Below, one piece after another: positions 12,967-64,000 of a stretch of 64,000 nucleotides of DNA; position 1 is the first letter of the stretch; each line of letters begins with the position of its first letter. The translations under genes and the position numbers were made by a program. Source of the DNA: a virus. Lineage: Duplodnaviria > Caudoviricetes. The stretch is from the IMG/VR virus record IMGVR_UViG_3300027976_000036, positions 143-64,142 of that record. The stretch is one strand, 5' to 3'. Below the pieces are notes generated by a model, which was given only the letters and a program-made list of their open reading frames with translations, had not been told where the DNA came from and did not search any database.

Positions 12967-13022
12967 TGGGTGTCGAGTAAACAGACTCTAGTTAATTACC
13001 AATTTACCATAAAAGGAATAAA

Positions 13023-50643: not shown

Positions 50644-50875
50644 ATTCGTACGGAATTTTCGTTTTAATTGACCATCCATTTTTAATAGTCAATTTTTCTT
50701 CATCTGATAGAATTTTCATAAATTCTTCTATATCATTTTGGCATCTATCTTTATATAATCTTGCCGACCTCCTATCAAATAAATAGTTTCCACTATAGAT
50801 TATAAGATCACCTATTGAATTGAGGTAAATTGTAACGTCAATTAATTTGGGACTTTTTTCGTTTAATTCATTCAT
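50621..50875 (-). CDS. Hypothetical protein
   Basis: ORF with CAGGA upstream. Confidence 0.55.
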   Translation of the reverse strand: MNELNEKSPKLIDVTIYLNSIGDLIIYSGNYLFDRRSARLYKDRCQNDIEEFMKILSDEEKLTIKNGWSIKTKIPYEYGEIYFE

Positions 50876-50898
50876 TCATTCATTCCTGTTCGTGGCAA

Positions 50899-50936
50899 AT
50901 AAAAAAAATGGAAAAAGCCGAAACTTTTTCCATTTT
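50899..50936 (-). terminator. Intrinsic terminator
   Basis: AAAATGGAAAAAG-TTTCGG-CTTTTTCCATTTT plus a T-run on the - strand. Confidence 0.7.
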
Positions 50937-50939
50937 AAA

Positions 50940-51308
50940 TTAATCTATCTCGATTTCAGACACCCAAAAGAACTTTTCTTCCTTTTGGGAAGTTTTAATA
51001 TCTTCTAAGTCTCTTAAATCTAAATATGATTGTTCTTTAATGAACAATTTTTCTTCTTCTATCATATTTTCTTCTGCTACATGAAGAAATCTTGAGAAAA
51101 GCTTTATCGAAACATCAGAAGCTTCATAGAGTTTCATGATATAATCATCAAGAAAGAGTTTCTTGCTGATTATATCATTATCAACCAGGTTGTTAGCCTG
51201 TAATACTTCAACAAAATTTCCTTTTGGCGAAATTCGCTTGATTTCAGTTTTGACAATGTTTAGTGCGTCAATCAAGGTTTTAAGAGCCTCAATTTTTTCA
51301 ATCTTCAT
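50940..51308 (-). CDS. Hypothetical protein
   Basis: Likely start MKIEKIE, overlapping the upstream stop. Confidence 0.6.
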   Translation of the reverse strand: MKIEKIEALKTLIDALNIVKTEIKRISPKGNFVEVLQANNLVDNDIISKKLFLDDYIMKLYEASDVSIKLFSRFLHVAEENMIEEEKLFIKEQSYLDLRDLEDIKTSQKEEKFFWVSEIEID

Positions 51309-51621
51309 ATTTTTCTGACCTTCTGTTCCTACTTGAACAGATTTGATTGTTATAATACCATACAACAAACTCTAATTCATGGTTCATCATTTCTTCGCTG
51401 AAACTTAGCGTCGAATGAAGTCTTTTTCCTTCGAAAATGTATGCTCCGTTTTTATTTGGGGTGACGAAATAGTTATATTTTCCATCGAAATAATATATTT
51501 CAGTTTTTTCCTTTGTATTAATTCGTGCTTTTATGGTAATACTCAAAAAAATATACCAAACCCTGCTACAGATAGATATATTACCAATATAACAAATCCC
51601 GTAAATAAGGATTTTGCCCAC
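51298..51621 (-). CDS. Hypothetical protein
   Basis: ORF; start uncertain. Confidence 0.4.
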   Translation of the reverse strand: MGKILIYGICYIGNISICSRVWYIFLSITIKARINTKEKTEIYYFDGKYNYFVTPNKNGAYIFEGKRLHSTLSFSEEMMNHELEFVVWYYNNQICSSRNRRSEKYED

Positions 51622-51752
51622 AGTAAATTATTTTCTCTGTGCCATTTTTTTCCCTCTGGGGATTCTCTGAATTCTTTTCTGATTTGTTCAAGTGACTTCA
51701 TAAATACTCCTTCGCTATCATTGTGATAGGTGCCTCAAGTGAGGCATTCATA

Positions 51753-52133
51753 TTATTCTGTCCAATTTTCGAGAGGAAACCAAGTGCTTCCTCTCATGTT
51801 TACATACCATTTATTTTCTATTGGTTTAAAAAGATACAGATATTCTGCACCCATGTAAGGCCAAGACCTTACATTTTTGTGATGTACTGTAGGTACAATC
51901 AGTGCAGGGTCTTCACCTCTTCGGTCTTTATAAAAAGAGCATTCCTTCAAAGTTTCACCCAATACTGATAAATCTCCGCCTTCAATTAGTTCTACTACGG
52001 ATTCCATTGTTTTATAGAATTCCAACAACAGACGCCCAGCAGATTCAACACCTCCTGCATTATGCAGGTATACTGACTTAACGTCGTAGTTTCCGTTGTT
52101 CAACTCAATACCAATAAGTGCTCTTGTACTCAT
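51753..52133 (-). CDS. Conserved phage protein (MSTR-x-x-IG...Y-x-H family)
   Basis: Recognisable widespread phage family pattern (GDLSVL, EYLYLF). AAAGGAG RBS. Confidence 0.7.
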   Translation of the reverse strand: MSTRALIGIELNNGNYDVKSVYLHNAGGVESAGRLLLEFYKTMESVVELIEGGDLSVLGETLKECSFYKDRRGEDPALIVPTVHHKNVRSWPYMGAEYLYLFKPIENKWYVNMRGSTWFPLENWTE

Positions 52134-52167
52134 TTTTCTCCTTTAAACCATTAGCGATGTTGCAAAC

Positions 52168-52178
52168 ACTATATACAC
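52168..52178 (-). promoter_or_regulatory. Putative promoter motif GTGTATATAGT
   Basis: Identical to the 29705 copy; 35 nt upstream of the 52133 start. Confidence 0.6.
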
Positions 52179-52272
52179 AAACACAAGAATCTTCATAAGA
52201 AAATTTTCTTTGTGTATATAAGAATTTATTTTATCTTCAATTAACATTCTTTTCAGATGAAATTTTCTTCAT

Positions 52273-52332
52273 ATAATGTACTCCTATATACTGCGACATT
52301 GCAGAATGTGAGGCACATGTGCCTCATTCGTT
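52273..52332 (-). repeat. Element 1
   Basis: + strand aatgtactcc...ctgcgacattgcag...tgaggc/gcctca-ttcgtt. Confidence 0.9.
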
Positions 52333-53041
52333 ATTCTTCGTCTTCATCATCATCATCAGGTGGATATAATTTCGCATATTGTTCATCAACAAGATGCATG
52401 AAATTGTGTCCAAGCGATGTACGAAACCTGGAGTTAAATGTTTGGGTTAATTCTTCGAATTCTTGATATTCCAATGGAATATCAAGCCTTATACATTCTT
52501 CAATAGAATGTATAATCGCATCATACTCACAGTGTTGTGATATAATAATGTTTAAGTTGTCATCAACATGGTGTTCAGCGTGGAACAAATCGTGAAAAAA
52601 CCACGAAATATTTTCGTATTTCATGACAATTTGAATTTTTCTAGTCCCATGTTCATTCCACCAATAAACAAAAGGTATTAATACATCGACTTTTTCTTCA
52701 AGAATAATTTGCCTATTTTTGTTGTTTATATAGAATCCATTTGCCGAAAACCGGCGCTTTTTCCATTTGCTTGGAAATTCATCATCATCTTCCTCTTCTG
52801 GATTCATGTATGGAATGAATGAATATGGCCAATCTTCTTCACCCATTCCCCACCTTATGATTGTATCATAATCTGGCATTTTTTCTTTGTTTTTATTGCA
52901 ATACCTCTTGTAAGCATCAAATGCTGACTTTGGTATTACCGTTTCATTTAGGCCGATTTCCCCGTTTCCAAAGCTTGAAAAATTCGTTGATTTTTTAAAG
53001 ATAAATTCAATTTTATCTTTGTCTACTGTATGGTATTCCAT
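52331..53041 (-). CDS. Hypothetical protein with HDLFH (HExxH-like) motif
   Basis: Start reassigned to MEYHTV using the element RBS. Stop overlaps element 1. Confidence 0.75.
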   Translation of the reverse strand: MEYHTVDKDKIEFIFKKSTNFSSFGNGEIGLNETVIPKSAFDAYKRYCNKNKEKMPDYDTIIRWGMGEEDWPYSFIPYMNPEEEDDDEFPSKWKKRRFSANGFYINNKNRQIILEEKVDVLIPFVYWWNEHGTRKIQIVMKYENISWFFHDLFHAEHHVDDNLNIIISQHCEYDAIIHSIEECIRLDIPLEYQEFEELTQTFNSRFRTSLGHNFMHLVDEQYAKLYPPDDDDEDEE

Positions 53042-53100
53042 AATGTACTCCTTAGTCATAGCAACATTGCTGTGAAATGGGAAATTAATCCCAAGTCGTA
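53042..53100 (-). repeat. Element 2
   Basis: aatgtactcc...catagcaacattgctgtg...tggga/tccca. Confidence 0.85.
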
Positions 53101-53103
53101 GAT

Positions 53104-53727
53104 TTATTTCAGATATTCTTTTGTTACAAGGCGCTGTAACGAAGCCATCGCGTCTTTAATGGCTTCTCTTTCTGAAGTAATACCGTCGCCTGATTCAATG
53201 ACGTCACCATCTTCATCTTCAATAGTCCATAGAAAGAACGAATCATGAGTAAAACCCTCTCTGTGTTCAACTATCTCAACACACAGAGCACTGAACATTT
53301 TCTCAAAGTTGTCTTTTGAGTATTTCGAATCTTTTCCAAGAACCCTTTCTGAGTGATTGTTCCAAAAATTGGAAGTTTCCTCTCTTTTGATGTAGAAAAA
53401 CCCAAATAAACCTGTGTCCCAACCACTAGCACATACGCTAGTATGCATGGTTAGTCCACTATGGTCAGTGGCGGAAATGCAATACACATGATACCCTCTT
53501 TCTTCCCCAAAGAGATTAACCATTTCTTCTATACTTTCACAATCAAAATTTGCAAAATCAACTCCCAAAGGTTTAATTTTGTCTATATTGGATTTTGGTC
53601 CTTCATAAGACTTGTGAAAACTACAAAATCCAATTCCATAATCCAAAATTTCGTCTTGAAAAAGTTGGGTTACTAGATCTTGCGAGCATTCCATGTCTTC
53701 TTGAACGGTAATTTTGTACTTAATCAT
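53104..53727 (-). CDS. Conserved phage/MGE hypothetical protein (DHSG...WD-x-G family)
   Basis: ATDHSGL...GWDTGLFGF motif. Confidence 0.7.
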   Translation of the reverse strand: MIKYKITVQEDMECSQDLVTQLFQDEILDYGIGFCSFHKSYEGPKSNIDKIKPLGVDFANFDCESIEEMVNLFGEERGYHVYCISATDHSGLTMHTSVCASGWDTGLFGFFYIKREETSNFWNNHSERVLGKDSKYSKDNFEKMFSALCVEIVEHREGFTHDSFFLWTIEDEDGDVIESGDGITSEREAIKDAMASLQRLVTKEYLK

Positions 53728-53784
53728 AATGTACTCCTACATACTGCGACATTGCAGCATATGAGGCTAAATGCCTCATTCGTT
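53728..53784 (-). repeat. Element 3
   Basis: ctgcgacattgcag...atgaggc/gcctcat-tcgtt. Confidence 0.9.
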
Positions 53785-54247
53785 AAGATAGTGTTTTGTT
53801 ATAAACAAAGCTCTCATATTCATGTAAAGCTGTTTCAGCTCTTTGGTATAAGTCTCTGGCTTCTGAGAAAAATGCCGATATCGACACCAGGTGGTTTGGT
53901 ATCGATATTAATGCATTTTCAATTGCAATGTCTCTATTTTCAAAGTGTTCAGCGTTCAGAACACTGTTCAAAGCACTTTTGATTTTCTCTAGGTGCATTG
54001 AGCAAAAATATATGGCCGATTCTATTGGCGTTGCTCCTATTTTTGACCAAATAACAGGAAGAGAGCTTTCTTTAATTAAAGAATTGATAATCTTCAACAT
54101 TGCTTCGCAATTGGTTTCGAACCTACAAATTGACATTATACTTTTGTTTGATTCCCAAAAAGAATACAAGAATTGTATTTCCTTTTCAAAATCGTCATTT
54201 TTGTGGTACGCCTGTATCATTTTTGACTCATTCTTAAATTTAGACAT
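53783..54247 (-). CDS. Hypothetical protein
   Basis: Bounded exactly by elements 4 and 3. Confidence 0.75.
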   Translation of the reverse strand: MSKFKNESKMIQAYHKNDDFEKEIQFLYSFWESNKSIMSICRFETNCEAMLKIINSLIKESSLPVIWSKIGATPIESAIYFCSMHLEKIKSALNSVLNAEHFENRDIAIENALISIPNHLVSISAFFSEARDLYQRAETALHEYESFVYNKTLS

Positions 54248-54311
54248 ATTGTTTCCTTACAAACAGTAGCAACATTGCTACATTATCCAACATTTCTGTT
54301 GGATATCGGTT
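54248..54311 (-). repeat. Element 4 (variant)
   Basis: gtagcaacattgctac...tatccaaca/tgttggata-tcggtt. Confidence 0.8.
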
Positions 54312-54322
54312 TAAAAGATGGT

Positions 54323-54865
54323 TTAAAAAAGAGGAACTTTTTCCAATCTTTTTAAGGAATCGTTTTCGAAATCCTGCGCAAAATTGTTATACTTTGCAAT
54401 CAGGTTTTCCAATTGTCCCTCTAAGTCTCTTGCACCATACATGAGGACTTCTATCTCATAAAATTCAGCCGCCAGCCTCTCAAAAACATAATCAATCAAA
54501 TTTCTGTTTTTTTCTGATTCGACAATGTCAAGGTTTTCGAATTGTGTTTGCCATGGAGTAAAATACTTAATCCGATCACACATCAAATCTAATAACCAAA
54601 TAATCCGGAATATAGAATGCCTATATGCCTCTTCTGGATCTCCATGGAGTTCTTTAGAATTTTCATTTTTCTGTGACTTGAAGAATTTTGAGATCATAAG
54701 TTGAAACAACAATTGCAACACATTTGCCGTCTCAACTCTAGTGACATAACCCGTATCCGTTTTCGGAGTGTGTCCAACTGACACTAGATATTTTTTCATA
54801 ACACTAAAGTCTTTCTCGAAGCCTGTAATGTTATTGTAAATCACAACCGTTTTTCTTTCGTTCAT
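54323..54865 (-). CDS. Hypothetical protein
   Basis: Starts at the element 5 RBS. Confidence 0.75.
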   Translation of the reverse strand: MNERKTVVIYNNITGFEKDFSVMKKYLVSVGHTPKTDTGYVTRVETANVLQLLFQLMISKFFKSQKNENSKELHGDPEEAYRHSIFRIIWLLDLMCDRIKYFTPWQTQFENLDIVESEKNRNLIDYVFERLAAEFYEIEVLMYGARDLEGQLENLIAKYNNFAQDFENDSLKRLEKVPLF

Positions 54866-54926
54866 AACGTACTCCTAGATATCTGCAACATTGCAGAATA
54901 TCTCGGCATTTCTGCCGAGATTCGTT
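54866..54926 (-). repeat. Element 5
   Basis: atctgcaacattgcaga-atatctcggcatttctgccgaga-ttcgtt. Confidence 0.95.
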
Positions 54927-54988
54927 TAATTATTCGAAGCGACGATTTACAATTTTTTTCTTACCACTTTTAAACCCCTAAAACCAAT

Positions 54989-55180
54989 CTAACGGATCAA
55001 ATTCTGGTTTTGGTTTGGTTTAATTCCTGCTGCAAGCAAAGCAAATATTGCCAAAGGACCAAAAAGCCAACCAAAGAAGGACCAACTTCCGGCGCAGCGA
55101 TTATATCTATTAGCAAGTATTGCTGCTATAATAGCAAAGTAGAATGAGAACATAATTATAATAAACCAATATTCGTTCAT
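54989..55180 (-). CDS. Small membrane protein, homologous to 33563-33841
   Basis: Two TM segments and NR...WSFFGWLFGP. Confidence 0.7.
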   Translation of the reverse strand: MNEYWFIIIMFSFYFAIIAAILANRYNRCAGSWSFFGWLFGPLAIFALLAAGIKPNQNQNLIR

Positions 55181-55242
55181 AATGTACTCCTAGATATTCT
55201 GCAACATTGCAGAATATCTCGGCATTTCTACCGAGATTCGTT
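55181..55242 (-). repeat. Element 6
   Basis: Perfect 11-6-11 palindrome agatattctgc-aacatt-gcagaatatct plus the ctcgg hairpin. Confidence 0.95.
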
Positions 55243-55675
55243 AACGAATAAAATATTGGTTAAGATATGTGATAAACATATTAGTTACACGCACTCTATC
55301 ATCTAGCTCAAATCCACACACGGTGGGATCGCCCAAGAAGTTGCGCACTGCACCTTCGTAATCCGTTAAGTTTGCGCACAGTACGCTGTCATAGCAATAT
55401 GACATAAATTTCGCAGGTGAAATTTTAATCAGTTCTCGCCATTTGTCTTCTTTTTCTTGAAAAGAAGACAAGTCAATTAAGCTACTAAGTTCTTTTTCCT
55501 TGTCGCTTAACTCAAAGATTTCGTGGGGCAAAATCTTTAATTGATTCAAAATTTTGATAGAAGTAGCTTGAGCTACTTCTATTTCTTCTATTAGGCTTCT
55601 CCTTTTTTCGAAATCATTTTTGATTGTTTCGATTTTGTTCTTTAACAAGTTTATCTTATATTCTAGTTCTTTCAT
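55241..55675 (-). CDS. Hypothetical coiled-coil protein
   Basis: Bounded exactly by elements 7 and 6. Confidence 0.75.
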   Translation of the reverse strand: MKELEYKINLLKNKIETIKNDFEKRRSLIEEIEVAQATSIKILNQLKILPHEIFELSDKEKELSSLIDLSSFQEKEDKWRELIKISPAKFMSYCYDSVLCANLTDYEGAVRNFLGDPTVCGFELDDRVRVTNMFITYLNQYFIR

Positions 55676-55735
55676 AATGTACTCCTAGATATCTGCAACA
55701 TTGCAGTATATCTCGGCATTTCTGCCGAGATTCGT
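55676..55735 (-). repeat. Element 7
   Basis: Near-identical to element 5. Confidence 0.95.
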
Positions 55736-55856
55736 CTGATTATTCGCTTGGTATAGTCAATGTAAAATTGTGTTTCTTGAATGACTCTACTTTAGAAAAT
55801 ATAGATTGTGCTTTTTTAAGCGTTTCTTCTGATTTTTTAAGTGCTTCTTCTGATTT

Positions 55857-56462
55857 TTAATTGGCTGTACTCAGAGCCAATTCAGCTTTTTTAACTTTGT
55901 CGGTTGTAGATTGTATCGCAACAAATATAGTTTCAATGTCAGGTTTTTTTGTGAGACGATATTCTAACTCTAGAATCTCTTCTTCTAATTCATATGCCCG
56001 TATATGATGCCATACTTTTTCACCTGCTTTCTTAGAATAAAAATCAGCTTTTGCTTCTTCTTTTTTTGCCATAACTAAGTTATTTTGGACATAATAACGT
56101 TTCATGTTGTCGAGAGCCGTCTTAAATTTTTTTATATCAGAAGGTCGCGCTTTTTCTGCTCTATATTCTTTTACTTTTTGTTCATCCATTTGCGTTTGTA
56201 ACTTTTCCATTAGCTTATAATCTGATACTTGTGATTTATAATCTGATACTTGTGATTTATAATCTGATACTTGTGATTTATAATTTTGTGCTATTTGTGT
56301 CCATGCATCGGCATCTTCTTTATAAATCTTAGCTTCAGCGAGTAATTCTTCAACGACTCTTATTCTGTCTTTGTCTAGTGGTTCATTATCATCTGCATTA
56401 GCAGAACTAACACTTATGAATGAAAAAGCGACAGCACCAAGAATCTTACAAAACTTATTCAT
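55857..56462 (-). CDS. Secreted coiled-coil protein, probably truncated by a premature TAA
   Basis: Signal peptide MNKFCK...SSANA. The frame stays open for 38 more codons to 55740. Confidence 0.75.
   Translation of the reverse strand: MNKFCKILGAVAFSFISVSSANADDNEPLDKDRIRVVEELLAEAKIYKEDADAWTQIAQNYKSQVSDYKSQVSDYKSQVSDYKLMEKLQTQMDEQKVKEYRAEKARPSDIKKFKTALDNMKRYYVQNNLVMAKKEEAKADFYSKKAGEKVWHHIRAYELEEEILELEYRLTKKPDIETIFVAIQSTTDKVKKAELALSTAN
56215..56283 (-). repeat. 21-bp coding tandem repeat x3 (YKSQVSD heptad)
   Basis: ttataatctgatacttgtgat repeated. Confidence 0.9.
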
Positions 56463-56540
56463 GTTACTCCTAGATATCTGCAACATTGCAGAATTTTAGA
56501 ATATGATAAACAATTTGTCTGTTTATCATATTCTAAACGT
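56463..56540 (-). repeat. Element 8 (18-bp variable stem)
   Basis: atctgcaacattgcaga plus tttagaatatgataaaca / tgtttatcatattctaaa. Confidence 0.9.
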
Positions 56541-56546
56541 CATATG

Positions 56547-57701
56547 TTATGCGACGAGCTGATACAGATACTGAAGCGCAGGTTGCGCCGTCGTATCAGT
56601 GTTCAGTACATCCTCATAACGAGAACGCAATCGAACCGTCTCAAGATTTACGTCACCGGTGTATCCATGGATATTCGTTCGCTTGCTGCGAAGAGTCCAA
56701 GAGGTTACGCCTTGAGCCCACCCGAAAACCGTTGATGTGTCAATATCCTCGACACCCGGCTGATCATTGTCCAAGTGATTCAGAAAATCAACGTGAAGTT
56801 TTTCCAACGACTTCGTCTGGCGATCCGACAAATCATTGTCAGTCAGAGACTTGCCGAAAAGATTTGAGAAGAATTCCCTCTTTTCACTGTCAACAATCTT
56901 ACGGCTAAGCATCTTGTCCAAAGTCTTCTGATATTGAGACGTAGATTCCACTACGTCCACAAGCGAAGACTTCCAATCATCCAATAGGATATAAGCGTTT
57001 GCCGTGCGCTTTAGATTACCATTTCCAATGGCGGCTTGGGCCTTTACGTGCATCATCGTATTCATGCACACGGTAGCCATAATGGTCTTTCTTGGACTAA
57101 GCGCCATCGAACCATCAAGGCTACCCATGATGGTCAAAAGATACGCATTTCCGTCCGCGAAACCACCTTCCCCAATATCTCCAACGAGATACTGCATACA
57201 GGCTTTCGCCCCATTGTCAAAAACAATCAATCCAAAAGGAATGAGTGCTTCTTCCAATTCTTTAGGCGGAAGAAGAGCATTCTCCCAACTAAAATTGGCC
57301 CATGACGCGCTGACAGAAGCATTCATTTCGAATTGCTTCTCCCCCCAAGTTGCGACAACTTGGGAACCACTTGTAGGAAGATATAATCCCGGATTCTTCA
57401 CACTTGGCATTACCCGTGGCAACACATGGATTCCGAAGTTTTCGGAATCCAGTCCAACCTTTTCCAATAACTGCAAACCAGAAGTAGGAGTTTCCTCCAT
57501 AACTTCTCCCAAACCGTGCCAAGCTTTTCCGGCCTGTGGACTAAAAACCGCAGCAAATCCAAAGGCATGACCATTCGGATTATCGGTAGTGACATCTTCG
57601 CTACCGATTGCCAACTTAGAAACCTTAGAAGCCTTAGCGGGCTTCTCGATGTCGAAGTTGGTATTAGCGAAGATACTGGCGATAGAATTGGTATTCGACA
57701 T
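56547..57701 (-). CDS. DUF932 / TIGR03299-like phage-plasmid protein
   Basis: AWHGLG, S-x-DGS, TVCMNT, T-x-FGW-x-QGVT motifs. Confidence 0.8.
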   Translation of the reverse strand: MSNTNSIASIFANTNFDIEKPAKASKVSKLAIGSEDVTTDNPNGHAFGFAAVFSPQAGKAWHGLGEVMEETPTSGLQLLEKVGLDSENFGIHVLPRVMPSVKNPGLYLPTSGSQVVATWGEKQFEMNASVSASWANFSWENALLPPKELEEALIPFGLIVFDNGAKACMQYLVGDIGEGGFADGNAYLLTIMGSLDGSMALSPRKTIMATVCMNTMMHVKAQAAIGNGNLKRTANAYILLDDWKSSLVDVVESTSQYQKTLDKMLSRKIVDSEKREFFSNLFGKSLTDNDLSDRQTKSLEKLHVDFLNHLDNDQPGVEDIDTSTVFGWAQGVTSWTLRSKRTNIHGYTGDVNLETVRLRSRYEDVLNTDTTAQPALQYLYQLVA

Positions 57702-57735
57702 TATTTACTCTCTTTCGAATGTATGTTTAACAATC

Positions 57736-58026
57736 TCAACTAATCTTGTGCAAGAGTTTGTACAAGATTTCTAAATCCCTTTCGATTTCAGATTGTATAC
57801 TTGGTAGCAATGAGTCGTGCTTCATTATAATACCTGTTTCCAGGTTGAGCGTCATTGTCAAGTAATCATCTACATCGTCAGGACAATATGCTTCAATCAA
57901 GTTAGAATTTCCAACTATCACTATCGCATAATTTTCATTTACGAATGTAATATGTTCTTCCCCGCTTTCTATACACATAAAAACTTTCATGTGCGAGAAA
58001 ATGATTTTTAAATTATCGCATATCAT
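57736..58026 (-). CDS. Hypothetical protein
   Basis: Starts at the element 9 RBS (AAGGA). Confidence 0.65.
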   Translation of the reverse strand: MICDNLKIIFSHMKVFMCIESGEEHITFVNENYAIVIVGNSNLIEAYCPDDVDDYLTMTLNLETGIIMKHDSLLPSIQSEIERDLEILYKLLHKIS

Positions 58027-58086
58027 GATCCTTCTCAGCCCTTGGTAACATTTCCAAGGATATCAGAAATTAATCTGATATTCGGT
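58027..58086 (-). repeat. Element 9 (divergent; stem fully replaced)
   Basis: ccttgg-taacattt-ccaagg plus atatcaga/tctgatat-tcggt. Confidence 0.7.
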
Positions 58087-58089
58087 ACT

Positions 58090-58290
58090 CTAACAAAATT
58101 TACGATAGCCATGAACTTGTGTAAACTCATAAACTTCGTAATATACATTACTGGGGCATGGTTTTTGATTGTGTTTGTATTTTGCCTTTAGCGCAGCCTC
58201 AAAACTCTTATGTCTTGAAATATAAGAGTTTACTGGTTCATTATTTATTTCGCAAAATACAAAAAAATATCTTCTGTGAGGATATCTCAA
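58090..58290 (-). CDS. Hypothetical protein
   Basis: TTG start coupled to the upstream stop. Confidence 0.55.
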   Translation of the reverse strand: MRYPHRRYFFVFCEINNEPVNSYISRHKSFEAALKAKYKHNQKPCPSNVYYEVYEFTQVHGYRKFC

Positions 58291-58766
58291 ATTTCTTCTC
58301 CTGTATCTCTTAAGATTCGTATTGTGAAATCATGAATGTGAGATTGATGAAGCAATTTTGCTTCTCTAATCTTTTCTTCGTTCTTAGAGTTCATAAGTAA
58401 AAATTCCGAGAACAAAGTTATATATCTTTGAATCTCGAAAAGGATACTATGAATCTTGTCAAGACTTTCTTGTGTAAGCATATCATCAATATATAGCATG
58501 ATGAATGTTGGCACTTGCGATACACAAAACTCTAACGAGTCTTTTGTTGTGTCCAAGACAGTTTTGTACTTTGGGCAGTAACCCGAAAAGTACTTCCTCT
58601 CATAATCTGAAAGTACGATTCGTGCCAACTTCTGTAAAAATATTTTCTCTTTAGGATCATCCTCCCTTTTGGACCTATTCCAAATTTTCTGGAAGATTTT
58701 CCAATTCTCAAGGTTTTCCTGGGGGATGTTAATTGTTGTCTCTTGGGTAGTTTTGATTATTTCCAT
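58287..58766 (-). CDS. Hypothetical protein
   Basis: Starts at the element 10 RBS. Confidence 0.75.
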   Translation of the reverse strand: MEIIKTTQETTINIPQENLENWKIFQKIWNRSKREDDPKEKIFLQKLARIVLSDYERKYFSGYCPKYKTVLDTTKDSLEFCVSQVPTFIMLYIDDMLTQESLDKIHSILFEIQRYITLFSEFLLMNSKNEEKIREAKLLHQSHIHDFTIRILRDTGEEI

Positions 58767-58829
58767 GATGTACTCCTAGAAATCTGCGACATTGCAGAAT
58801 ACGAACCCCGTGAAAAGGGTTCATTCGTT
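58767..58829 (-). repeat. Element 10
   Basis: tctgcgacattgcaga plus gaaccc/gggttc-attcgtt. Confidence 0.9.
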
Positions 58830-58831
58830 TG

Positions 58832-59329
58832 TTAGATATTTGTATCATCAGATAACTTGACGATATAAGAATGATATGCGTCTTTCGCATTTTCCATGGC
58901 CACGAGAAATCCATTTGATTCATTGATTACATTCTGGATTCTGTCTAAAATCCAACTCACACGCACGCAAACGTTTTTATATTCTTCAAAAGCTTGCTCG
59001 TTAAGCGCATAACTGTTTATATTAAACGACATCAAACTTTTTACGTTTGATATTGCCATGTTTATTCTGGTGTAATACCAAAACATAGCTTTTTGTTTAA
59101 GAGAGAGAACTAAGTATTCTTCTTCCTCTTTTTCAACTGAGAAATATTGAAACTGCACGTATTCCAATAGATCAGAAATGACACTGAGAATGAATTCATT
59201 CTCATAAAAATTTTCAGTATCCTGATAAAGCTTTATTCTTTGGAATAGACGTTGAACGTTTCCAAAAGATTTTTCGAATTCATAATTATTATATATCTCA
59301 ATTGAAAGCTCTTTCATCAGATTAGACAT
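58832..59329 (-). CDS. Hypothetical protein
   Basis: Start reassigned to MSNLMKE using the element RBS. Confidence 0.75.
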   Translation of the reverse strand: MSNLMKELSIEIYNNYEFEKSFGNVQRLFQRIKLYQDTENFYENEFILSVISDLLEYVQFQYFSVEKEEEEYLVLSLKQKAMFWYYTRINMAISNVKSLMSFNINSYALNEQAFEEYKNVCVRVSWILDRIQNVINESNGFLVAMENAKDAYHSYIVKLSDDTNI

Positions 59330-59388
59330 GATGTACTCCTTAGTAATAGCAACATTGCTATATTTGCCAACAGATGTTGGCAATCGTA
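59330..59388 (-). repeat. Element 11
   Basis: atagcaacattgctat plus ttgccaac/gttggcaa-tcgt. Confidence 0.9.
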
Positions 59389-59838
59389 TTATGTTTTTGT
59401 TATCTCAATCTCATACATGGCGACCAACATTCCTAGATTATCCTCCGCATCTTGTTCCGCTTTTTTGAAAAAAGTGAGTCTCTTCACAAACTCGCGAAAC
59501 TTAGATAACTCGACATTAAGGATTTCATAGTTATAGTTTTCATGACTTGGAAAGCCTGTGCCATTTTTGATGTATGCTTCATCGACATTGTCAACTTCTT
59601 GTTGTATTCTCATTAAGAAGTTGTTAATAACATTGCTGATGCCATGATCGGCATAGCTTTTTGTTTTATCATCTTTTTGGAAATGCTCCTGTCCGGAGAT
59701 AGTTGCATAACTAATTGCTCTTAAATAAAAGAGAGCTAGATTTACTTCCATGATTCTGTGATGGTGAAATTTCTTCCACGCGAAAGTTATGTCTTCCAAT
59801 AATAATTGGGAACAAAATTTGAATTTAACGTTAGACAT
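59389..59838 (-). CDS. Hypothetical protein
   Basis: Bounded by elements 12 and 11. Confidence 0.75.
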   Translation of the reverse strand: MSNVKFKFCSQLLLEDITFAWKKFHHHRIMEVNLALFYLRAISYATISGQEHFQKDDKTKSYADHGISNVINNFLMRIQQEVDNVDEAYIKNGTGFPSHENYNYEILNVELSKFREFVKRLTFFKKAEQDAEDNLGMLVAMYEIEITKT

Positions 59839-59901
59839 GATATACTCCTTGGATACTGCGACATTGCAGAATATGAATCAATTTTCATTGATTCATTCGT
59901 T
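59839..59901 (-). repeat. Element 12
   Basis: ctgcgacattgcag plus atgaatcaat/attgattcat-tcgtt. Confidence 0.9.
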
Positions 59902-59903
59902 GA

Positions 59904-60176
59904 TTATTTAGAAATATTTTTTAGCAATATTTCTTGCAAAATAAGAAGCTTTTCTAAATTTTCTTCTTCTTCTCTATGGTATCGGAACTTTTCCCTATCA
60001 AATCCTTTATAAAAGACTAACCACTGACTATTGAGAGTCAGTCTTTTCTTTAAATCGATAATTGTTTTTTCGGCAATTAAGATTGCCACTTTTGATTCTG
60101 GAGACATTTTATTATTTTCCTTCGAATCAGCTTTTTCAAGCTCTTCGAACCAATTGAAATTGTAGTCTTCTTTCAT
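59904..60176 (-). CDS. Hypothetical protein
   Basis: Bounded by elements 13 and 12. Confidence 0.75.
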   Translation of the reverse strand: MKEDYNFNWFEELEKADSKENNKMSPESKVAILIAEKTIIDLKKRLTLNSQWLVFYKGFDREKFRYHREEEENLEKLLILQEILLKNISK

Positions 60177-60240
60177 GATGTACTCCTAGATATGCTGCAA
60201 CATTGCAGCATATGAATCCCTTTTACAGGATTCATTCGTT
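60177..60240 (-). repeat. Element 13
   Basis: atatgctgc-aacatt-gcagcatat plus atgaatcc/ggattcat-tcgtt. Confidence 0.95.
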
Positions 60241-60731
60241 TATCCTTCGATGGCTACCAACTTTTGATCGAAGTCTGTGGGCATATCCTCTTGCCAATTT
60301 GGAAATCCGAATTTGCAGAAAACATCATCGAAACTTGACACCAAATTGATTCCGTAGACGACGGTCAACTCGGCGTCTCCGTATGAAAAATCCGCGTTTA
60401 ATTCCAAACGCTCCATGAATTCACTTTGCACATCAAAAGCATACTTCTGTTCAAGATTGTAAAGCAAATCGTTGATGTGCAGAATTTCAAAGTCCGTATG
60501 GGTGACTTCCTTGCTCCAAGCATTCAGAGTTTGAAGGTCTTTGAGTTCTTTCAACTGTGAACTCAAAGTCTTCACAATCTCTTTGAGTTCAAAAGTTGTC
60601 TCAAAGACGCTTTGCTCAAGCGTCTTCAAGTTTGCAATGTTTTCCTCTAGATCTTTCCCATATTGAGGAATCAAAGCATTCAGTGTAGCAATGCTGGCGG
60701 TTAATGCTTTCTCTTTGTTGTCAATTTCCAT
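60240..60731 (-). CDS. Hypothetical coiled-coil protein
   Basis: Bounded exactly by elements 14 and 13. Confidence 0.75.
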   Translation of the reverse strand: MEIDNKEKALTASIATLNALIPQYGKDLEENIANLKTLEQSVFETTFELKEIVKTLSSQLKELKDLQTLNAWSKEVTHTDFEILHINDLLYNLEQKYAFDVQSEFMERLELNADFSYGDAELTVVYGINLVSSFDDVFCKFGFPNWQEDMPTDFDQKLVAIEG

Positions 60732-60796
60732 ATTGTACTCCTAAATATACTGCAACATTGCAGCATATGAATCCTGTAAAAAAGGATTCATTCGTT
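60732..60796 (-). repeat. Element 14
   Basis: ctgcaacattgcag plus atgaatcc/ggattcat-tcgtt. Confidence 0.95.
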
Positions 60797-61071
60797 TAAC
60801 AAGAATATTGTGCACAGACGATGTGGAAATCGTCATAATCATCTTCTGCGAATTTGCAGACGATTCCCCAGAAGATAGTTGCATGTTCTGCAAATTGCCA
60901 ACCTTCTTCTGAAGTTGGCATCATATCATTGATATCGTAACAATTGTTACGATATCGAAAGAAACTGGCATCTGTATCAGGTTTTCTATAGTGATCGAAA
61001 TCACTTTTCTCTTCTTTTGTCAGATCGTTCCAACAAAGGATTTTGCATTTTTCTGAATTCTTAATTTCCAT
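60796..61071 (-). CDS. Conserved small phage protein
   Basis: W-x-DLT-x-x-E...FFRYR-x-x-x-Y-x-I-x-D pattern. Confidence 0.7.
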   Translation of the reverse strand: MEIKNSEKCKILCWNDLTKEEKSDFDHYRKPDTDASFFRYRNNCYDINDMMPTSEEGWQFAEHATIFWGIVCKFAEDDYDDFHIVCAQYSC

Positions 61072-61135
61072 AATGTACTCCTGGATATCTGCGACATTGC
61101 AGTATATGAATCAATTTTTCATTGATTCATTCGTT
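61072..61135 (-). repeat. Element 15
   Basis: atctgcgacattgcag plus atgaatcaat/attgattcat-tcgtt. Confidence 0.95.
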
Positions 61136-61302
61136 TAAAGATTTCTTTCTATCCTCCTTAATTTACCTTTTGGAATTCGAGAAGCAATTGCGTCTCTAAT
61201 TTCTTTTAAATCTTTAATTTTTTGTTCTTTTGTTATTGCATGATTAGTGATATCACTAATCAGACATTCAACCATGATTAAAATATCTTCAAGAGATTCC
61301 AT
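61135..61302 (-). CDS. 55-aa hypothetical protein (not in the ORF track)
   Basis: MESLEDILIMVECLISD...RRIERNL*. Start and stop sit exactly at elements 16 and 15. Confidence 0.75.
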   Translation of the reverse strand: MESLEDILIMVECLISDITNHAITKEQKIKDLKEIRDAIASRIPKGKLRRIERNL

Positions 61303-61367
61303 AATATACTCCTGGATATCTGCGACATTGCAGCATATAGAACCCTTTTTATAGGGTTCTGGGCGTT
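61303..61367 (-). repeat. Element 16
   Basis: atctgcgacattgcag plus agaaccct/agggttct-gggcgtt. Confidence 0.9.
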
Positions 61368-61822
61368 TAGTTTTCTTTCAGGTACTGAGCCATCATTCTC
61401 TCGATGGAAGCCATAGGAACGCTATGTACGTTCCTCTCAGCGAATTTTCGACAGAGTTCGTCCCTCTTCAAAGAGGTTGACAAATCGAACTCTTCGAATA
61501 GATTGACGAACTCGACATTATATCCTCGTTTTTCCGCAAAATAAGTATACTGTTTCCAATGAACTTTCATTATGTTCGTGTTGTTCACGAACACATATGG
61601 GGTAAAACTATCCAAAGCTGCCACGAATTTTTTGAAGCAACTGCCATGAGCAGTTGCCAATTGGGCGGGGTTCCAATCATAATGACCATTTTTCATGAAA
61701 TGATCATCTGCCGAGCAGACGACCATTTCTTCAGTTGACAGTTGCATTTCCTTTCGGAAATTGTCGATAAAGAAATCTTTGCCCATTCCGGGCACGCCTT
61801 GCATGATATAAACGGTGTTCAT
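61367..61822 (-). CDS. P-loop kinase (AAA_33 / N4BP2-like polynucleotide kinase)
   Basis: GVPGMGKD, CSADDHF, AH-x-x-C, VNNTN, RNVHSVP. Confidence 0.85.
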   Translation of the reverse strand: MNTVYIMQGVPGMGKDFFIDNFRKEMQLSTEEMVVCSADDHFMKNGHYDWNPAQLATAHGSCFKKFVAALDSFTPYVFVNNTNIMKVHWKQYTYFAEKRGYNVEFVNLFEEFDLSTSLKRDELCRKFAERNVHSVPMASIERMMAQYLKEN

Positions 61823-61883
61823 TATACTCCTTAGCTAATAGCGACATTGCTATGTTTCCCAATGCTTTCATTGGAAATTCGTT
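61823..61883 (-). repeat. Element 17
   Basis: atagcgacattgctat plus ccaatg/cattgg...ttcgtt. Confidence 0.85.
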
Positions 61884-61888
61884 AATCA

Positions 61889-62218
61889 TTAATCATGCAC
61901 AGCGATTAGAAGGTCTTCGAAAAGAACTCCTAACTTTTTCTGTACTAAGTTAATCCAACTCTTGTTCCCTTCATACGAAGAGACTTCCAAATCATCTAAA
62001 ACATGATTTACTATGGGTATTATATCCATTCCCGTCAATATGCAATATTGGAACTTTCCAATATCAAAGCATTCGTCCGTTTTTTCTAACAATACGGACT
62101 CGAAATCTTCTGGGTCAGTGACCCCGTTCAGTTCGCTAAGTGAATTGAACACGATTTCTGAAAATCGCGAAAACATGATTACTTCGATATTTTCAAAGTT
62201 CTTTTTATTTTTCTTCAT
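61889..62218 (-). CDS. Hypothetical protein
   Basis: Bounded by elements 18 and 17. Confidence 0.75.
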   Translation of the reverse strand: MKKNKKNFENIEVIMFSRFSEIVFNSLSELNGVTDPEDFESVLLEKTDECFDIGKFQYCILTGMDIIPIVNHVLDDLEVSSYEGNKSWINLVQKKLGVLFEDLLIAVHD

Positions 62219-62290
62219 AATGTACTCCTAGATATCTGCGACATTGCAGCATATGAATCAATTTTTCATTGATTCATTCGTTCGTTCGTT
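62219..62290 (-). repeat. Element 18 (TTCG end triplicated)
   Basis: Near-identical to element 15, ending ttcgttcgttcgtt. Confidence 0.95.
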
Positions 62291-62502
62291 TAGATATAAA
62301 ATCTACACTTTTGGTGTAAATCCCAAATTCTCCACTTGAAATCATAAGAGATTTCAAATCTTATAATCATTTCTTCGAGCATGTCCACCGTGAGACACAG
62401 AGATGTTTCAAAAGGACTCTTATTTGCCTTGTCCATCAAGAAGTTCCTAAGCTCTCTTATAAAGCTTAGTTTTTCTTCCCAAGTCAATTCTGATACTTTC
62501 AT
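62290..62502 (-). CDS. Hypothetical protein
   Basis: AAAGGA RBS. Stop abuts element 18. Confidence 0.7.
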   Translation of the reverse strand: MKVSELTWEEKLSFIRELRNFLMDKANKSPFETSLCLTVDMLEEMIIRFEISYDFKWRIWDLHQKCRFYI

Positions 62503-62559: not shown

Positions 62560-62615
62560 AAAATAAAATAAATAAATGTTGGGAAGTTTTATTTTCCCAA
62601 CATTTATTTTATTTT
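62560..62615 (-). terminator. Long AT-rich hairpin / probable terminator
   Basis: aataaatgttgggaa...ttcccaacatttatt flanked by A/T runs. Confidence 0.6.
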
Positions 62616-62844: not shown

Positions 62845-62862
62845 TTTTTTTTCCTAAATTTG

Positions 62863-62935
62863 TTTTACTTTTGAATGATATACTCAAAAGCCGGCATGAT
62901 TGCCAGTTCCCAACCTTTAAAAGTTGGGAATCGTT
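62863..62935 (-). repeat. Type-B element 1 (three hairpins)
   Basis: cttttga-atgatatac-tcaaaag, ggca-tgat-tgcc, ttcccaac/gttgggaa-tcgtt. Confidence 0.85.
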
Positions 62936-63366: not shown

Positions 63367-63386
63367 TTTTCTTTCTCCAACATTTA

Positions 63387-63459
63387 TTTTACTTTTGAAT
63401 GATATACTCAAAAGCTGACATGATTGCCAGTCTCCCAACTTTAAAAGTTGGGATTCGTT
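63387..63459 (-). repeat. Type-B element 2
   Basis: Near-identical direct repeat of 62863-62935. Confidence 0.85.
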
Positions 63460-63464
63460 AAAAG

Positions 63465-63536
63465 TTAAAGTAGAACCAATATCATCGGGCTAAAGAATAG
63501 CCCAATGATTGCCATGGAAAAGATAAACATTTTCAT
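63465..63536 (-). CDS. 23-aa hydrophobic peptide MKMFIFSMAIIGLFFSPMILVLL
   Basis: AAGGAATCATT-ATG RBS resembles the element RBS. Stop lies 5 nt before type-B element 2. Confidence 0.5.
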   Translation of the reverse strand: MKMFIFSMAIIGLFFSPMILVLL

Positions 63537-64000
63537 AATGATTCCTTGAGAGTCAATTGGAGAGGATTCTCCATTTTGGAACAAAATGTTTCACTGTGAA
63601 ACAAAATGTTCCGTTGTTTCAATTGTCTAACCTGGAAAACTTTAATAAAATCCAAGGTTTGTGACATTCAACATTGCAGATATTAATCAATGCAACGTTT
63701 CGCCATTAAAGGTGGCGAGTTTTTGAAACTGTAAGTATATGATTATATTGGGTATATTGAGTATATTTGAGCAATATGGGGATTAACAAATCCACCCACA
63801 CTTTTCTAAACTTTTCTCAAACTTATCAACTTTATTCAATTAAATCAAATACTCACAGCTTGGCAATATCGCCAAGTGAGACACACTGAAACACTTGAAA
63901 CAAAACGTTTCAAATGTTTCAATATGTCCCTTCGGAACAAGTTTTATATCATTTTCTAAACCATCGCTGGTCCTCTCTTTATGCACTGTTAATCTTATTA

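What the first reader, a model, noticed from the sequence alone, without database searches (positions are those of the whole stretch)
53057..61853. Hairpin 2 conserves structure and loop rather than stem sequence, and the loop is complementary to the pre-start spacer
Seen on the + strand: stems covary around the same loop. Examples are tctgc/gcaga, atatgctgc/gcagcatat (60190), atagc/gctat (59346, 61838), gtagc/gctac (54266) and ccttgg/ccaagg (58039). This points to recognition of a folded RNA or ssDNA rather than a dsDNA operator. On the mRNA the loop 5'-AAUGU is exactly complementary to the conserved 5'-ACAUU between the SD and AUG, so an H-type pseudoknot or alternative pairing could mask the ribosome site. 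Inference: either a translational switch or processing site shared by a whole regulon, or a template-strand hairpin promoter by analogy with N4 virion RNAP promoters, since the hairpin lies just upstream of the SD.
Basis: partly seen in the sequence, partly recalled or inferred. Interest (0 to 1): 0.75.

Follow-up and report, generated by a model that had tools for sequence, protein, structure and literature searches.

The report
Repeated hairpin cassette before phage genes
An uncultured freshwater giant phage puts the same short control cassette, built around a small hairpin with an unchanging loop, just before the ribosome site of 18 small genes; it is a real shared control signal, but the proposed pseudoknot is not supported.

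Summary
The hairpin is real. A covariance model finds exactly 18 copies, all on the minus (coding) strand between 52.27 and 62.26 kb; the next best hit has E 0.89. The loop AAUGU is identical in 18 of 18 copies. The stem occurs in three sequence classes linked by changes on both sides.

Hairpin 2 is one module of a ~65-nt cassette: stop codon, ACGAAT box, variable hairpin 1, hairpin 2, AGGAGUA ribosome site, AUG. The cassettes punctuate an array of small orphan genes in a jumbo-phage fragment. They are also breakpoints of gene gain and loss between co-occurring strains.

The loop-to-spacer complementarity holds in the consensus, but:
- Five or more contiguous pairs exist in only 8 of 18 copies.
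- It shows no compensatory change.
- It is worth about -1.2 kcal/mol.
- It is missing from the most diverged copies, which still keep the loop.

Best reading (about 0.4): an RNA stem-loop 5-9 nt upstream of the ribosome site, read through its loop by a trans-acting factor that co-regulates the gene set. Main rival (about 0.25): a non-sigma70 promoter nested in the hairpins. An N4-style hairpin promoter is not excluded but has no support (about 0.08). No transcript data exist.

The parts
52270..62297 (-). Array of 18 cassettes, one before nearly every small gene or short operon: stop codon, ACGAAT box, hairpin 1, hairpin 2, AGGAGUA, AUG
62236..62249 (-). hairpin 2 core CUGC AAUGUC GCAG (class 1)
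61839..61852 (-). hairpin 2 core, class 2 (AUAGC/GCUAU); spacer lacks ACAUU
61320..61333 (-). hairpin 2 core, class 1
61089..61102 (-). hairpin 2 core, class 1
60750..60763 (-). hairpin 2 core, class 1, extended to 9 bp with one G.U
60195..60208 (-). hairpin 2 core, class 1, extended to 9 bp (AUAUGCUGC/GCAGCAUAU, 60190-60213)
59856..59869 (-). hairpin 2 core, class 1
59347..59360 (-). hairpin 2 core, class 2 (AUAGC/GCUAU)
58784..58797 (-). hairpin 2 core, class 1
58040..58059 (-). hairpin 2, class 3: CCUUGG A-AAUGUU-A CCAAGG. Same loop, unrelated stem and flanks, no ACAUU spacer
56478..56491 (-). hairpin 2 core, class 1; preceded by the longest hairpin 1 (19 bp, 56496-56538)
55693..55706 (-). 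hairpin 2 core, class 1 (consensus copy; SD 55682-55686, spacer UACAUU 55676-55681, AUG 55673-55675)
55199..55212 (-). hairpin 2 core, class 1, extended to 11 bp
54883..54896 (-). hairpin 2 core, class 1
54267..54280 (-). hairpin 2 core, class 2 (GUAGC/GCUAC)
53744..53757 (-). hairpin 2 core, class 1, extended with two G.U pairs on the sense strand
53059..53072 (-). hairpin 2 core, class 2 variant CACAGC/GCUAUG with an internal C.A mismatch on the sense strand (G.T on the + strand)
52291..52304 (-). hairpin 2 core, class 1. Here it is followed by only an 11-codon remnant; contigs L038 and L043 carry about 1.1 kb more at this point
60212..60235 (-). hairpin 1, example (AUGAAUCC...GGAUUCAU). Present in all 18 cassettes (weak at 53068). 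Stems are 7-19 bp of at least 9 different sequences, with no U tract after them
60234..60240 (-). AACGAAU box, example. A CGAAU-like box ends 24-28 nt before the loop in 17 of 18 cassettes
60183..60187 (-). Shine-Dalgarno AGGAG, example (followed by UACAUC and AUG at 60174-60176)
62850..62935 (-). Second cassette type, copy 1 (approximate bounds): ACGAUU, CCCAAC hairpin, CUGGCA-AUCA-UGCCGG hairpin, CUUUUGA hairpin
63385..63470 (-). Second cassette type, copy 2 (approximate bounds). Strains lack the 531 b between the two copies
62570..62609 (-). Canonical two-way intrinsic terminator (16-17 bp stem plus T run). It shows what terminators look like here, unlike hairpin 1

Best explanation
Hairpin 2 is the conserved core of a ~65-nt expression cassette. 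The cassette precedes 18 small, mostly orphan genes of an uncultured freshwater jumbo phage. I think hairpin 2 most likely acts in the RNA. It is a small stem-loop (4-5 bp core, sometimes 9-11 bp) lying 5-9 nt upstream of a strong AGGAGUA ribosome site. A trans-acting factor, most plausibly a phage RNA-binding protein acting as repressor or endonuclease, would recognise its invariant AAUGU(Y) loop and closing G-C pair. Translation or decay of the whole gene set could then be switched together, as RegA, RegB and gp43 do for phage T4 messages. Hairpin 1, which begins right after the upstream stop codon and has no U tract, would be the 3'-end or processing hairpin of the upstream message.

Shown: the copies, the structure conservation, the fixed position before the ribosome site, and the recombination at cassettes. 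Inferred: the RNA level, the existence of a binding factor, and the regulatory outcome.
For: - 18 copies, all in the sense orientation, each 4-9 nt before an SD and followed by an ATG.
- Stem pairs change on both sides while 5 loop bases and one G-C pair are invariant in 18 of 18 copies. This holds even in the class 3 copy, which shares nothing else.
- As RNA, hairpin 2 appears in 17 of 18 minimum-energy folds and hairpin 1 in 18 of 18. The z-score is -2 or lower in 14 of 18.
- Core stability is -3.7 to -4.6 kcal/mol as RNA against -2.7 to -3.1 as DNA.
- Upstream ORFs always stop 0-8 nt before hairpin 1 and never run into either hairpin.
- Cassette genes use GGAG (16 of 18), whereas the + strand genes mostly use AAGGA. 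This marks a separate translational class.
- No sigma70-type promoter lies in the cassettes, although two canonical ones exist on the + strand.
- No phage RNA polymerase was found in the window or in four distant relatives, one of them 89% complete.
- The identical 14-mer sits between a predicted sigma70 promoter and the SD in an unrelated ~35 kb phage family, at the predicted 5' end of the transcript.
- Known analogues: the T4 gp43 operator is a hairpin with a conserved loop upstream of the RBS, and the RegB site is GGAG plus a long 3' extension (PMC3014915, passages read).
Against: - There are no transcript data at all, so RNA versus DNA is not decided.
- Strand tests are inconclusive. The sense strand folds better in 12 of 18 cassettes, Wilcoxon p = 0.51. 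Internal wobble-type pairs favour the sense strand only 3:1 in hairpin 1 and 3:1 in hairpin 2 (read).
- The loop-closing position is A-U in 10 copies and A.C in 8 on the sense strand, but A-T or G.T in all 18 on the template strand.
- No candidate RNA-binding protein was identified: 38 window proteins scanned with Pfam and 54 window protein queries with PHROGs (23, 31). Only about 29% of the genome is in hand.
- The ACGAAT box and the TATnCT hexamer have promoter-like spacing, which this reading leaves unexplained.
- Invariance among paralogues could partly reflect recent spread or gene conversion.
Confidence: 0.4

Rival explanations
1. Promoter nested in hairpins, of the PeSL/PmSL type but not sigma70. 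The ACGAAT box serves as a -35-like or activator box. Variable hairpin 1 fills the spacer. TATnCT, the 5' flank plus first two bases of hairpin 2, serves as the -10. Transcription starts in the AAUGU loop. The hairpins then form only on read-through RNA from upstream.
For: - A CGAAT-like box ends 24-28 nt before the loop in 17 of 18 cassettes. That is 16-20 nt before a hexamer with A2, T3 and T6 in 13 of 13 class 1 copies and in the class 3 copy.
- The family with the longest hairpin 1 has a second GAAT at the right distance.
- The -10 flavour resembles the two canonical + strand promoters, TATACT and TATAGT.
- A box plus hairpin-1-like element follows a canonical terminator at 62.55 kb, where no 3' hairpin is needed.
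- A distant relative has a classical hairpin-plus-sigma70-promoter array of 15 copies.
- Cassettes are recombination breakpoints, as PeSLs are (PMC4122927, passages read).
- Earlier scan notes describe promoters nested in hairpins (unchecked leads).
Against: - The four class 2 copies lack T6 and have no consistent -10, yet keep hairpin, loop and SD.
- A start site does not explain five invariant bases plus compensatory stem changes.
- The box-to-hexamer distance equals hairpin 1 length plus a constant, so the spacing may be a by-product.
- The h2-less copy at 62.55 kb would give a leader too short to hold its SD.
- The consensus scan flags no cassette as a promoter.
Confidence: 0.25
2. N4-style promoter: the template (+) strand hairpin CTGC-RACATT-GCAG is extruded and read by a phage single-subunit RNA polymerase. 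Transcripts would start about 5 nt past the hairpin, just before the SD.
For: - N4 promoters have conserved and variable stem bases, with the variable ones free as long as pairing holds, and specific loop contacts (PMC4496689, passages read). This matches.
- If the hairpin centre is placed near -11 to -13, +1 falls in AUAUCU just before AGGAG (read).
- The loop-closing pair is A-T or G.T in 18 of 18 copies on the template strand.
- A 5095-aa orphan gene lies next to the array.
Against: - The loop is 4-6 nt and A/T-rich. N4 has a 3-nt loop within a GC-rich heptamer.
- DNA stability is only -2.7 to -3.1 kcal/mol.
- There are 18 copies against 3 in N4.
- No T7-like polymerase signal was found in the orphan: no Pfam, PHROG or PDB hit, and no Rx3Kx6-7YG motif (a recalled motif).
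- PF00940 hits nothing in the window or in four relatives, but its control also rang in no genome, so that search is uninformative.
- The leader would be only a few bases long before the SD.
Confidence: 0.08
3. Loop-spacer pairing: AAUGU pairs with ACAUU between SD and AUG, forming a pseudoknot or alternative fold that masks or tunes the ribosome site.
For: - The consensus is exactly complementary.
- 84.4% of cells are paired in the proposed helix.
- Five or more contiguous pairs exist in 8 of 18 copies, and 4 or more (G.U allowed) in 17 of 18.
- Chance for one such 5-mer is about 4.4%.
Against: - 0 of 5 pairs show a change on both sides, and the spacer changes in 10 of 18 copies without any loop change.
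- The duplex is worth -1.2 kcal/mol before any pseudoknot penalty.
- It would use 5 of the 6 loop bases.
- Copies 58052 and 61848 keep the loop without the partner.
- A conserved 3' extension of GGAG has another known explanation: the T4 RegB/S1 site GGAGRAYARAA (PMC3014915).
Confidence: 0.05
4. Structure only: hairpins 1 and 2 are generic 3' and 5' end-protecting hairpins carried on a cassette that spreads by recombination. The loop is constant through recent common descent and gene conversion, not through recognition.
For: - Strain-level gain and loss of genes occurs exactly at cassettes: skips of 316 and 531 b, and a ~1.1 kb difference at 52.26 kb.
- Assemblies break at the repeats.
- An earlier scan note describes 5' hairpin leader cassettes in an rV5-like phage (unchecked).
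Against: Flanks and stems have diverged to three classes, and hairpin 1 to at least 9 sequences, while five loop bases never changed. That is hard to explain without selection on the loop.
Confidence: 0.12
5. Double-stranded operator for a dimeric DNA-binding repressor (CTGCA-N4-TGCAG).
For: It is an inverted repeat of operator size. In the unrelated ~35 kb phage family the same 16-bp palindrome lies at a promoter next to a divergent Cro-like gene.
Against: The half-sites differ between classes (CTGC, TAGC, CTTGG) but always in step. Meanwhile the asymmetric centre AATGT, which a dimer would contact least, is invariant. Caveat: template-switch repair of quasi-palindromes can also create paired changes (established knowledge, not tested here).
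Confidence: 0.05

Closest known systems
PeSL / PmSL cassettes of T4-type phages (Arbiol 2010; Comeau 2014, PMC4122927, passages read)
   Same: Compact intergenic cassettes (stem-loop, expression signal, SD, start codon) repeated before small variable genes in hyperplastic regions. They are also sites of gene gain and loss between close strains.
   Different: PeSLs carry a recognisable sigma70 (or Mot-box) promoter between stem-loop and SD, and their stem-loops are terminators. Here only ~26 nt separate hairpin 1 from the SD, no sigma70 promoter is detectable, hairpin 1 has no U tract, and a second hairpin with an invariant loop fills the gap.
[quoted passage not shown]
   Same: A conserved asymmetric repeat containing the SD a few bases before the start codon of many non-structural genes, in one orientation, often with an inverted repeat just upstream. 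Function was still unproven in 2025.
   Different: For ESAS the authors found little support for an RNA hairpin, because departures in the two arms do not match. Here the arms do change together and the loop is fixed. The sequences and hosts are unrelated.
Phage N4 virion RNA polymerase hairpin promoters (PMC4496689, passages read)
   Same: A small hairpin with fixed loop and inner stem bases and free outer stem bases, lying just upstream of the expressed region.
   Different: N4 has a 3-nt loop, a GC-rich core, three copies at the genome end, and a known 3500-aa T7-like virion polymerase. None of these was found here.
T4 post-transcriptional regulators: gp43 operator hairpin, RegA, RegB (PMC3014915, passages read)
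   Same: The gp43 operator is a hairpin with a conserved loop upstream of and overlapping the RBS. RegB acts on GGAG ribosome sites of many early genes, with a long conserved 3' extension. RegA represses about 30 messages.
   Different: The gp43 operator is a single site. RegA and RegB sites are unstructured. No homologue of these proteins was found in the window.

Membership tests
N4-type hairpin promoter | 5-7 bp stem with a 3-nt loop inside a GC-rich heptamer centred near -11 (PMC4496689) | tested here: not met
   The core stem is 4-5 bp, the loop is 4-6 nt (AAUGUY), and the centre is A/T-rich.
N4-type hairpin promoter | Conserved inner stem and loop bases; outer stem bases free if pairing is kept | tested here: met
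   G-C invariant, C-G in 17 of 18, outer pairs change on both sides.
N4-type hairpin promoter | A virion-packaged T7-like RNA polymerase encoded by the phage | tested here: inconclusive
   None found in the window or in the 5095-aa orphan. The PF00940 genome search had a silent control. Only about 29% of the genome is held.
N4-type hairpin promoter | Primary transcripts start a fixed distance (about 5 nt) past the hairpin | not testable with these tools
   No RNA run was listed for this sequence.
PeSL / PmSL cassette | Stem-loop just upstream of a promoter, then SD and start codon, repeated in a region of small variable genes | tested here: inconclusive
   The order stem-loop, conserved block, SD, ATG is met. 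A promoter is not shown: there is no sigma70 match, only a box-N16-20-TATnCT pattern.
PeSL / PmSL cassette | Stem-loop is an effective terminator (hairpin plus U run) | tested here: not met
   Hairpin 1 is followed by AUAUnCUGC on the sense strand. The canonical terminators in the same region look different.
PeSL / PmSL cassette | Cassettes flank insertions, deletions and replacements between close relatives | tested here: met
   Skips of 316 b and 531 b between cassette copies, and a ~1.1 kb difference after cassette 52300.
SAS / ESAS (cluster K mycobacteriophages) | 13-bp consensus GGGATAGGAGCCC 3-7 bp before start codons | tested here: not met
   The conserved block here is CUAGGAGUACAUU. 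It shares only AGGAG.
H-type pseudoknot translational operator | Second helix between the hairpin loop and a downstream segment, kept by compensatory change and stable enough to form | tested here: not met
   0 of 5 pairs show changes on both sides; -1.2 kcal/mol; absent in copies 58052 and 61848.
Rfam families | Match to any curated RNA family | tested here: not met
   Two chance-level matches only (E 0.29 and 0.33, far below gathering scores), neither at a cassette.
lambda-type nut site (boxA + boxB) | A linear box followed by a hairpin with a conserved loop; one or two per genome, upstream of terminators | tested here: not met
   A box and a loop-conserved hairpin exist, but in 18 copies, separated by hairpin 1, and with no U-tract terminators between them. 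The nut features are recalled, not taken from a call.

The most novel reading that the evidence does not exclude
The cassettes could be hairpin promoters read on the template strand by an unrecognised phage RNA polymerase, possibly housed in the neighbouring 5095-aa orphan protein. That would take N4-style hairpin promoter recognition outside the N4-like phages and into a jumbo phage, with 18 promoters driving an early gene array. A second bold reading that is not excluded: a regulon-wide RNA operator whose AAUGU loop is bound by a new phage RNA-binding regulator or nuclease.
Probability: 0.08. Interest if true: 0.85.

Novelty: new variant of a known kind. Interest (0 to 1): 0.5.

Why it matters
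Repeated control cassettes in the variable regions of large phages decide when the host-takeover genes are made. They also act as the joints at which such genes are swapped. This cassette has no detectable host-type promoter or standard terminator. Its conserved core is a hairpin whose loop is fixed while its stem is free to change, which is the signature of a structure-specific reader. If it is a polymerase, it would be a second, independent case of hairpin promoters. The phage is uncultured and only a third of its genome is known, so the practical value is limited for now.

Tried and rejected
- Close relatives with the motif: an IMG/VR scan gave 29 loci, each with a single match. None carries the cassette, and some of them belong to an unrelated ~35 kb phage family.
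- The metagenome scan gave 15 loci: 5 near-identical pieces of the same phage, 8 of the ~35 kb family, and 2 unrelated. An expanded, diverged alignment could therefore not be built.
- The phage collection has no similar DNA.
- Relatives by protein: the 384-aa DUF932 protein found none. DnaE-like polymerase homologues at 72% and 50% identity exist in the protein collection, but their DNA could not be reached. Only relatives at 43% identity or less were fetched, and they lack the motif.
- Expression: no RNA holder was listed. The three DNA runs gave only contigs, with no listed variant inside any hairpin 2 (52 further differences not shown).
- Rfam gave nothing at the cassettes.
- The sigma70 consensus scan found 68 sites against 51.3 expected, none at cassettes.
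- Strand of folding: energy comparison and wobble counts were inconclusive.
- An upstream ORF from the AUG in the loop would end at an overlapping UGA only where the gene starts AUGA, about 6 of 18 copies (read). Rejected.
- Integron attC-like reading: the core sites do not fit, and there are two separate hairpins plus an SD (read; attC features recalled). Rejected.
- The 5095-aa orphan: Pfam, PHROGs, PDB sequences, the homologue search, the Atlas and motif regexes were all blank.
- Polymerase and sigma searches in four relatives: none found, apart from one weak Sigma70_r2 hit below cut-off in G009. The PF00940 control was silent.
- Earlier notes of this scan: none for this genome or sequence.

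Full report
**Context.** The window is all but 142 bases of a 64,142-base IMG/VR virus record. CheckV rates it 29% complete, and it is held by three freshwater metagenome runs. The + strand (1-35 kb) carries replication and nucleotide genes: DnaB-like helicase, ribonucleotide reductase, an adenylosuccinate-synthetase-like gene, a DnaE-like polymerase, dUTPase, GroEL, rIIA/rIIB, thymidylate synthase and RNA ligase. The minus strand carries a 5095-aa orphan ORF (35078-50365) and then, from 50.4 to 64 kb, about 28 small genes. Nearly all of these have no family. No phage in the GenBank collection has similar DNA. The best phage match to the polymerase is 28% identical.

**The observation.**
- The core GCRACATTGC occurs 25 times at up to one mismatch against 4.34 expected. 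Seventeen exact copies lie on the + strand between 52293 and 62247.
- Read on the coding (minus) strand, each copy is CUGC-AAUGUY-GCAG or a variant. AGGAGUA follows 5-9 nt later, and an AUG 4-8 nt after that.
- A covariance model of the 18 copies recovers them (E <= 3.5e-5) and nothing else better than E 0.89 in 64 kb on either strand. All 18 are on the minus strand.
- The four core pairs are formed in 97.2% of cells. Two of them change on both sides: C-G 13 / U-A 4, and U-A 13 / A-U 4 / G-C 1. No shuffle reaches the observed covariation.
- A further outer pair forms in 12 of 18 copies with four pair types (read).
- Only the five loop bases AAUGU, one G-C pair and parts of the ribosome site are invariant.
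- There are three stem classes: CUGC/GCAG (13 copies); UAGC/GCUA (4, one with a C.A mismatch); and CCUUGG/CCAAGG (1, at 58040-58059). The last shares neither flanks nor spacer with the others.
- Because the copies are paralogues, the independent compensatory events are few, about five. The pattern is still clear: structure and loop are kept, stem sequence is not.

**What surrounds it.** Hairpin 2 is one module of a cassette of about 65 nt. The order is: stop codon of the upstream gene, (A)ACGAAU, hairpin 1, AUAU-N, hairpin 2, N-AUAUCU, AGGAGUA, CAUU, AUG.
- Hairpin 1 is present in all 18 cassettes (weak at 53068). Its stems are 7-19 bp of at least nine unrelated sequences. It often has a GAAA loop, and no U run follows it.
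- Canonical terminators with long T runs do exist nearby, at 62570-62609 and 50905-50936, and they look different.
- As RNA, 17 of 18 cassettes fold with hairpin 2 and 18 of 18 with hairpin 1. z-scores run from -0.65 to -6.23, with 14 of 18 at -2 or below.
- Genes without a cassette overlap or abut the gene before them, for example 58090-58290 and 56547-57701. The cassettes therefore mark unit boundaries.
- Cassette genes use GGAG (16 of 18), while + strand genes mostly use AAGGA.
- Two canonical sigma70-type promoters with a shared extended motif lie on the + strand at 12939 and 26083. No cassette scores as such a promoter.

**Cassettes as joints.** Near-identical fragments of the same phage from other samples, and contigs of three runs, differ from the window exactly at cassettes.
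- A contig in run X3 skips the 316 b between cassettes 55208 and 54892, removing a 63-codon gene.
- Contigs in X1 and X2, and contig L034, skip the 531 b between two copies of a second cassette type at 63.46 and 62.93 kb.
- Contigs L038 and L043 carry about 1.1 kb after cassette 52300, where the window has an 11-codon remnant.
This is the behaviour described for PeSL cassettes of T4-type phages (PMC4122927, passages read).

**The pseudoknot idea.** The consensus spacer ACAUU is complementary to the loop, and 84.4% of cells in the proposed helix are paired. Against it:
- None of its five pairs shows a change on both sides.
- The loop never varies, while the spacer departs from UACAUU in 10 of 18 copies.
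- Five or more contiguous Watson-Crick pairs exist in only 8 of 18 copies.
- The most diverged copies (58052, 61848) keep the loop but lack the partner.
- The free duplex is worth -1.2 kcal/mol, against -3.7 to -13.1 for the hairpin.
- It would consume five of the six loop bases.
- A 5-mer match of this kind arises by chance in 4.4% of shuffled or random neighbours.
I conclude that the complementarity is real in the consensus but is not supported as a conserved pairing. A conserved extension 3' of GGAG has another known precedent, the T4 RegB/S1 site GGAGRAYARAA (PMC3014915).

**RNA or DNA?** This could not be settled.
- Folding energies of the two strands do not differ: the sense strand is better in 12 of 18, Wilcoxon p = 0.51.
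- Internal wobble-type pairs favour the sense strand 3:1 in hairpin 1 and 3:1 in hairpin 2 (read).
- The loop-closing position is pairable in 18 of 18 copies on the template strand but in only 10 of 18 on the sense strand.

Several points favour RNA:
- The fixed position 5-9 nt before the ribosome site holds in all three classes.
- The upstream ORFs always end just before hairpin 1.
- The core hairpin has low DNA stability, -2.7 to -3.1 kcal/mol.
- No RNA polymerase was detected in the window, the orphan or four distant relatives. The PF00940 control was silent, and the genome is incomplete.
- The identical 14-mer sits at the predicted 5' end of a transcript in an unrelated ~35 kb phage family. 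That match is within chance expectation for the scan.

**A promoter-like pattern.**
- A CGAAT-like box ends 24-28 nt upstream of the loop in 17 of 18 cassettes. That is 16-20 nt before a TATnCT hexamer formed by the 5' flank and the first two bases of hairpin 2.
- This is promoter-like spacing, and it would put the start site in the loop.
- Against it, the four class 2 copies have no such hexamer yet keep hairpin, loop and SD. The spacing may simply equal the length of hairpin 1.
- A distant relative (G009, polymerase 41% identical) has a classical array of 15 hairpin-plus-sigma70-promoter cassettes. So cassette promoters are used in the wider lineage.

**Verdict.** The hairpin with an invariant loop and freely changing stem is confirmed. 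It is the core of an 18-copy expression cassette.
- Best reading (0.4): an RNA stem-loop recognised by a trans-acting factor that co-regulates the set.
- Nested non-sigma70 promoter: 0.25.
- Structure-only cassette: 0.12.
- N4-style hairpin promoter: 0.08.
- Loop-spacer pseudoknot: 0.05.
- Duplex operator: 0.05.
The closest known systems are PeSL/PmSL cassettes and the SAS/ESAS repeats of cluster K mycobacteriophages, whose function is itself still unproven (PMC3203893, PMC12699233). It differs from both in its structure-conserved hairpin with a fixed loop. I rate it a new variant of a known kind, of moderate interest. Transcript end mapping is the decisive missing datum.

Noticed in passing
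window 35078-50365 (-): A 5095-aa ORF with no detectable relative or domain in any library tried; only its own cluster is found. It is rich in K, E, N, L and I.
   Followed up: partly
window 12939-12970 and 26083-26113 (+): Two sigma70-like promoters sharing an extended motif (TAATTGACAATAA..AAGGTGGATATA.T), before the dUTPase and rIIA genes. The second is followed by an inverted repeat of GGTGGATATAG.
   Followed up: no
window about 62850-62935 and 63385-63470 (-): A second cassette type in two copies of about 90 nt: ACGA(A/U)U, a CCCAAC hairpin, a CUGGCA-AUCA-UGYCRG hairpin that resembles hairpin 2 but has another loop, and a third hairpin. Strains lack the 531 b between the copies.
   Followed up: partly
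window 63570-63640, 63740-63775 and 63920-63960 (-): The non-coding right end holds GAAACAUUUUGUUYC-like repeats and a run of four TATAMT hexamers. This may be a control region or the entry promoter for the array.
   Followed up: no
loci L002, L018, L022, L026, L028, L031, L033, L035, L036, L040-L042, L044: An unrelated ~35 kb phage family carries the identical 14-mer CTGCAATGTCGCAG between TTGACA-N17-TAATAT and an SD, beside a divergent Cro-like gene. In the 4 records of this family whose whole length was searched it occurs once per genome. It could be a 5' leader hairpin or an operator.
   Followed up: partly
G009 (loci L057-L058), record positions about 41950-55830: A distant relative has a GC-rich array with 15 copies of a GGGGCTAGCCCC hairpin. 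Most copies are followed by a T run, and several by a TTGAC/TTGCC-N17-TAnnnT promoter. This is a classical PeSL-like array.
   Followed up: partly
window 5256-6347 (+): An adenylosuccinate-synthetase-like gene whose best PHROG is the family named for the PurZ-type enzyme. It may hint at modified adenine in the DNA.
   Followed up: no
window 51705-51750 (-): A degenerate cassette before the 52-codon ORF 51543-51701: AUGAAU, a GCCUC hairpin, then CUAUCA-CAA-UGAUAG and AAGGAGUAUUUAUG. A hairpin is kept here, but with another loop.
   Followed up: no
window 56220-56290 (-): A 21-nt tandem repeat of about three copies inside gene 55857-56462. This is also the most variable stretch between strains.
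   Followed up: no
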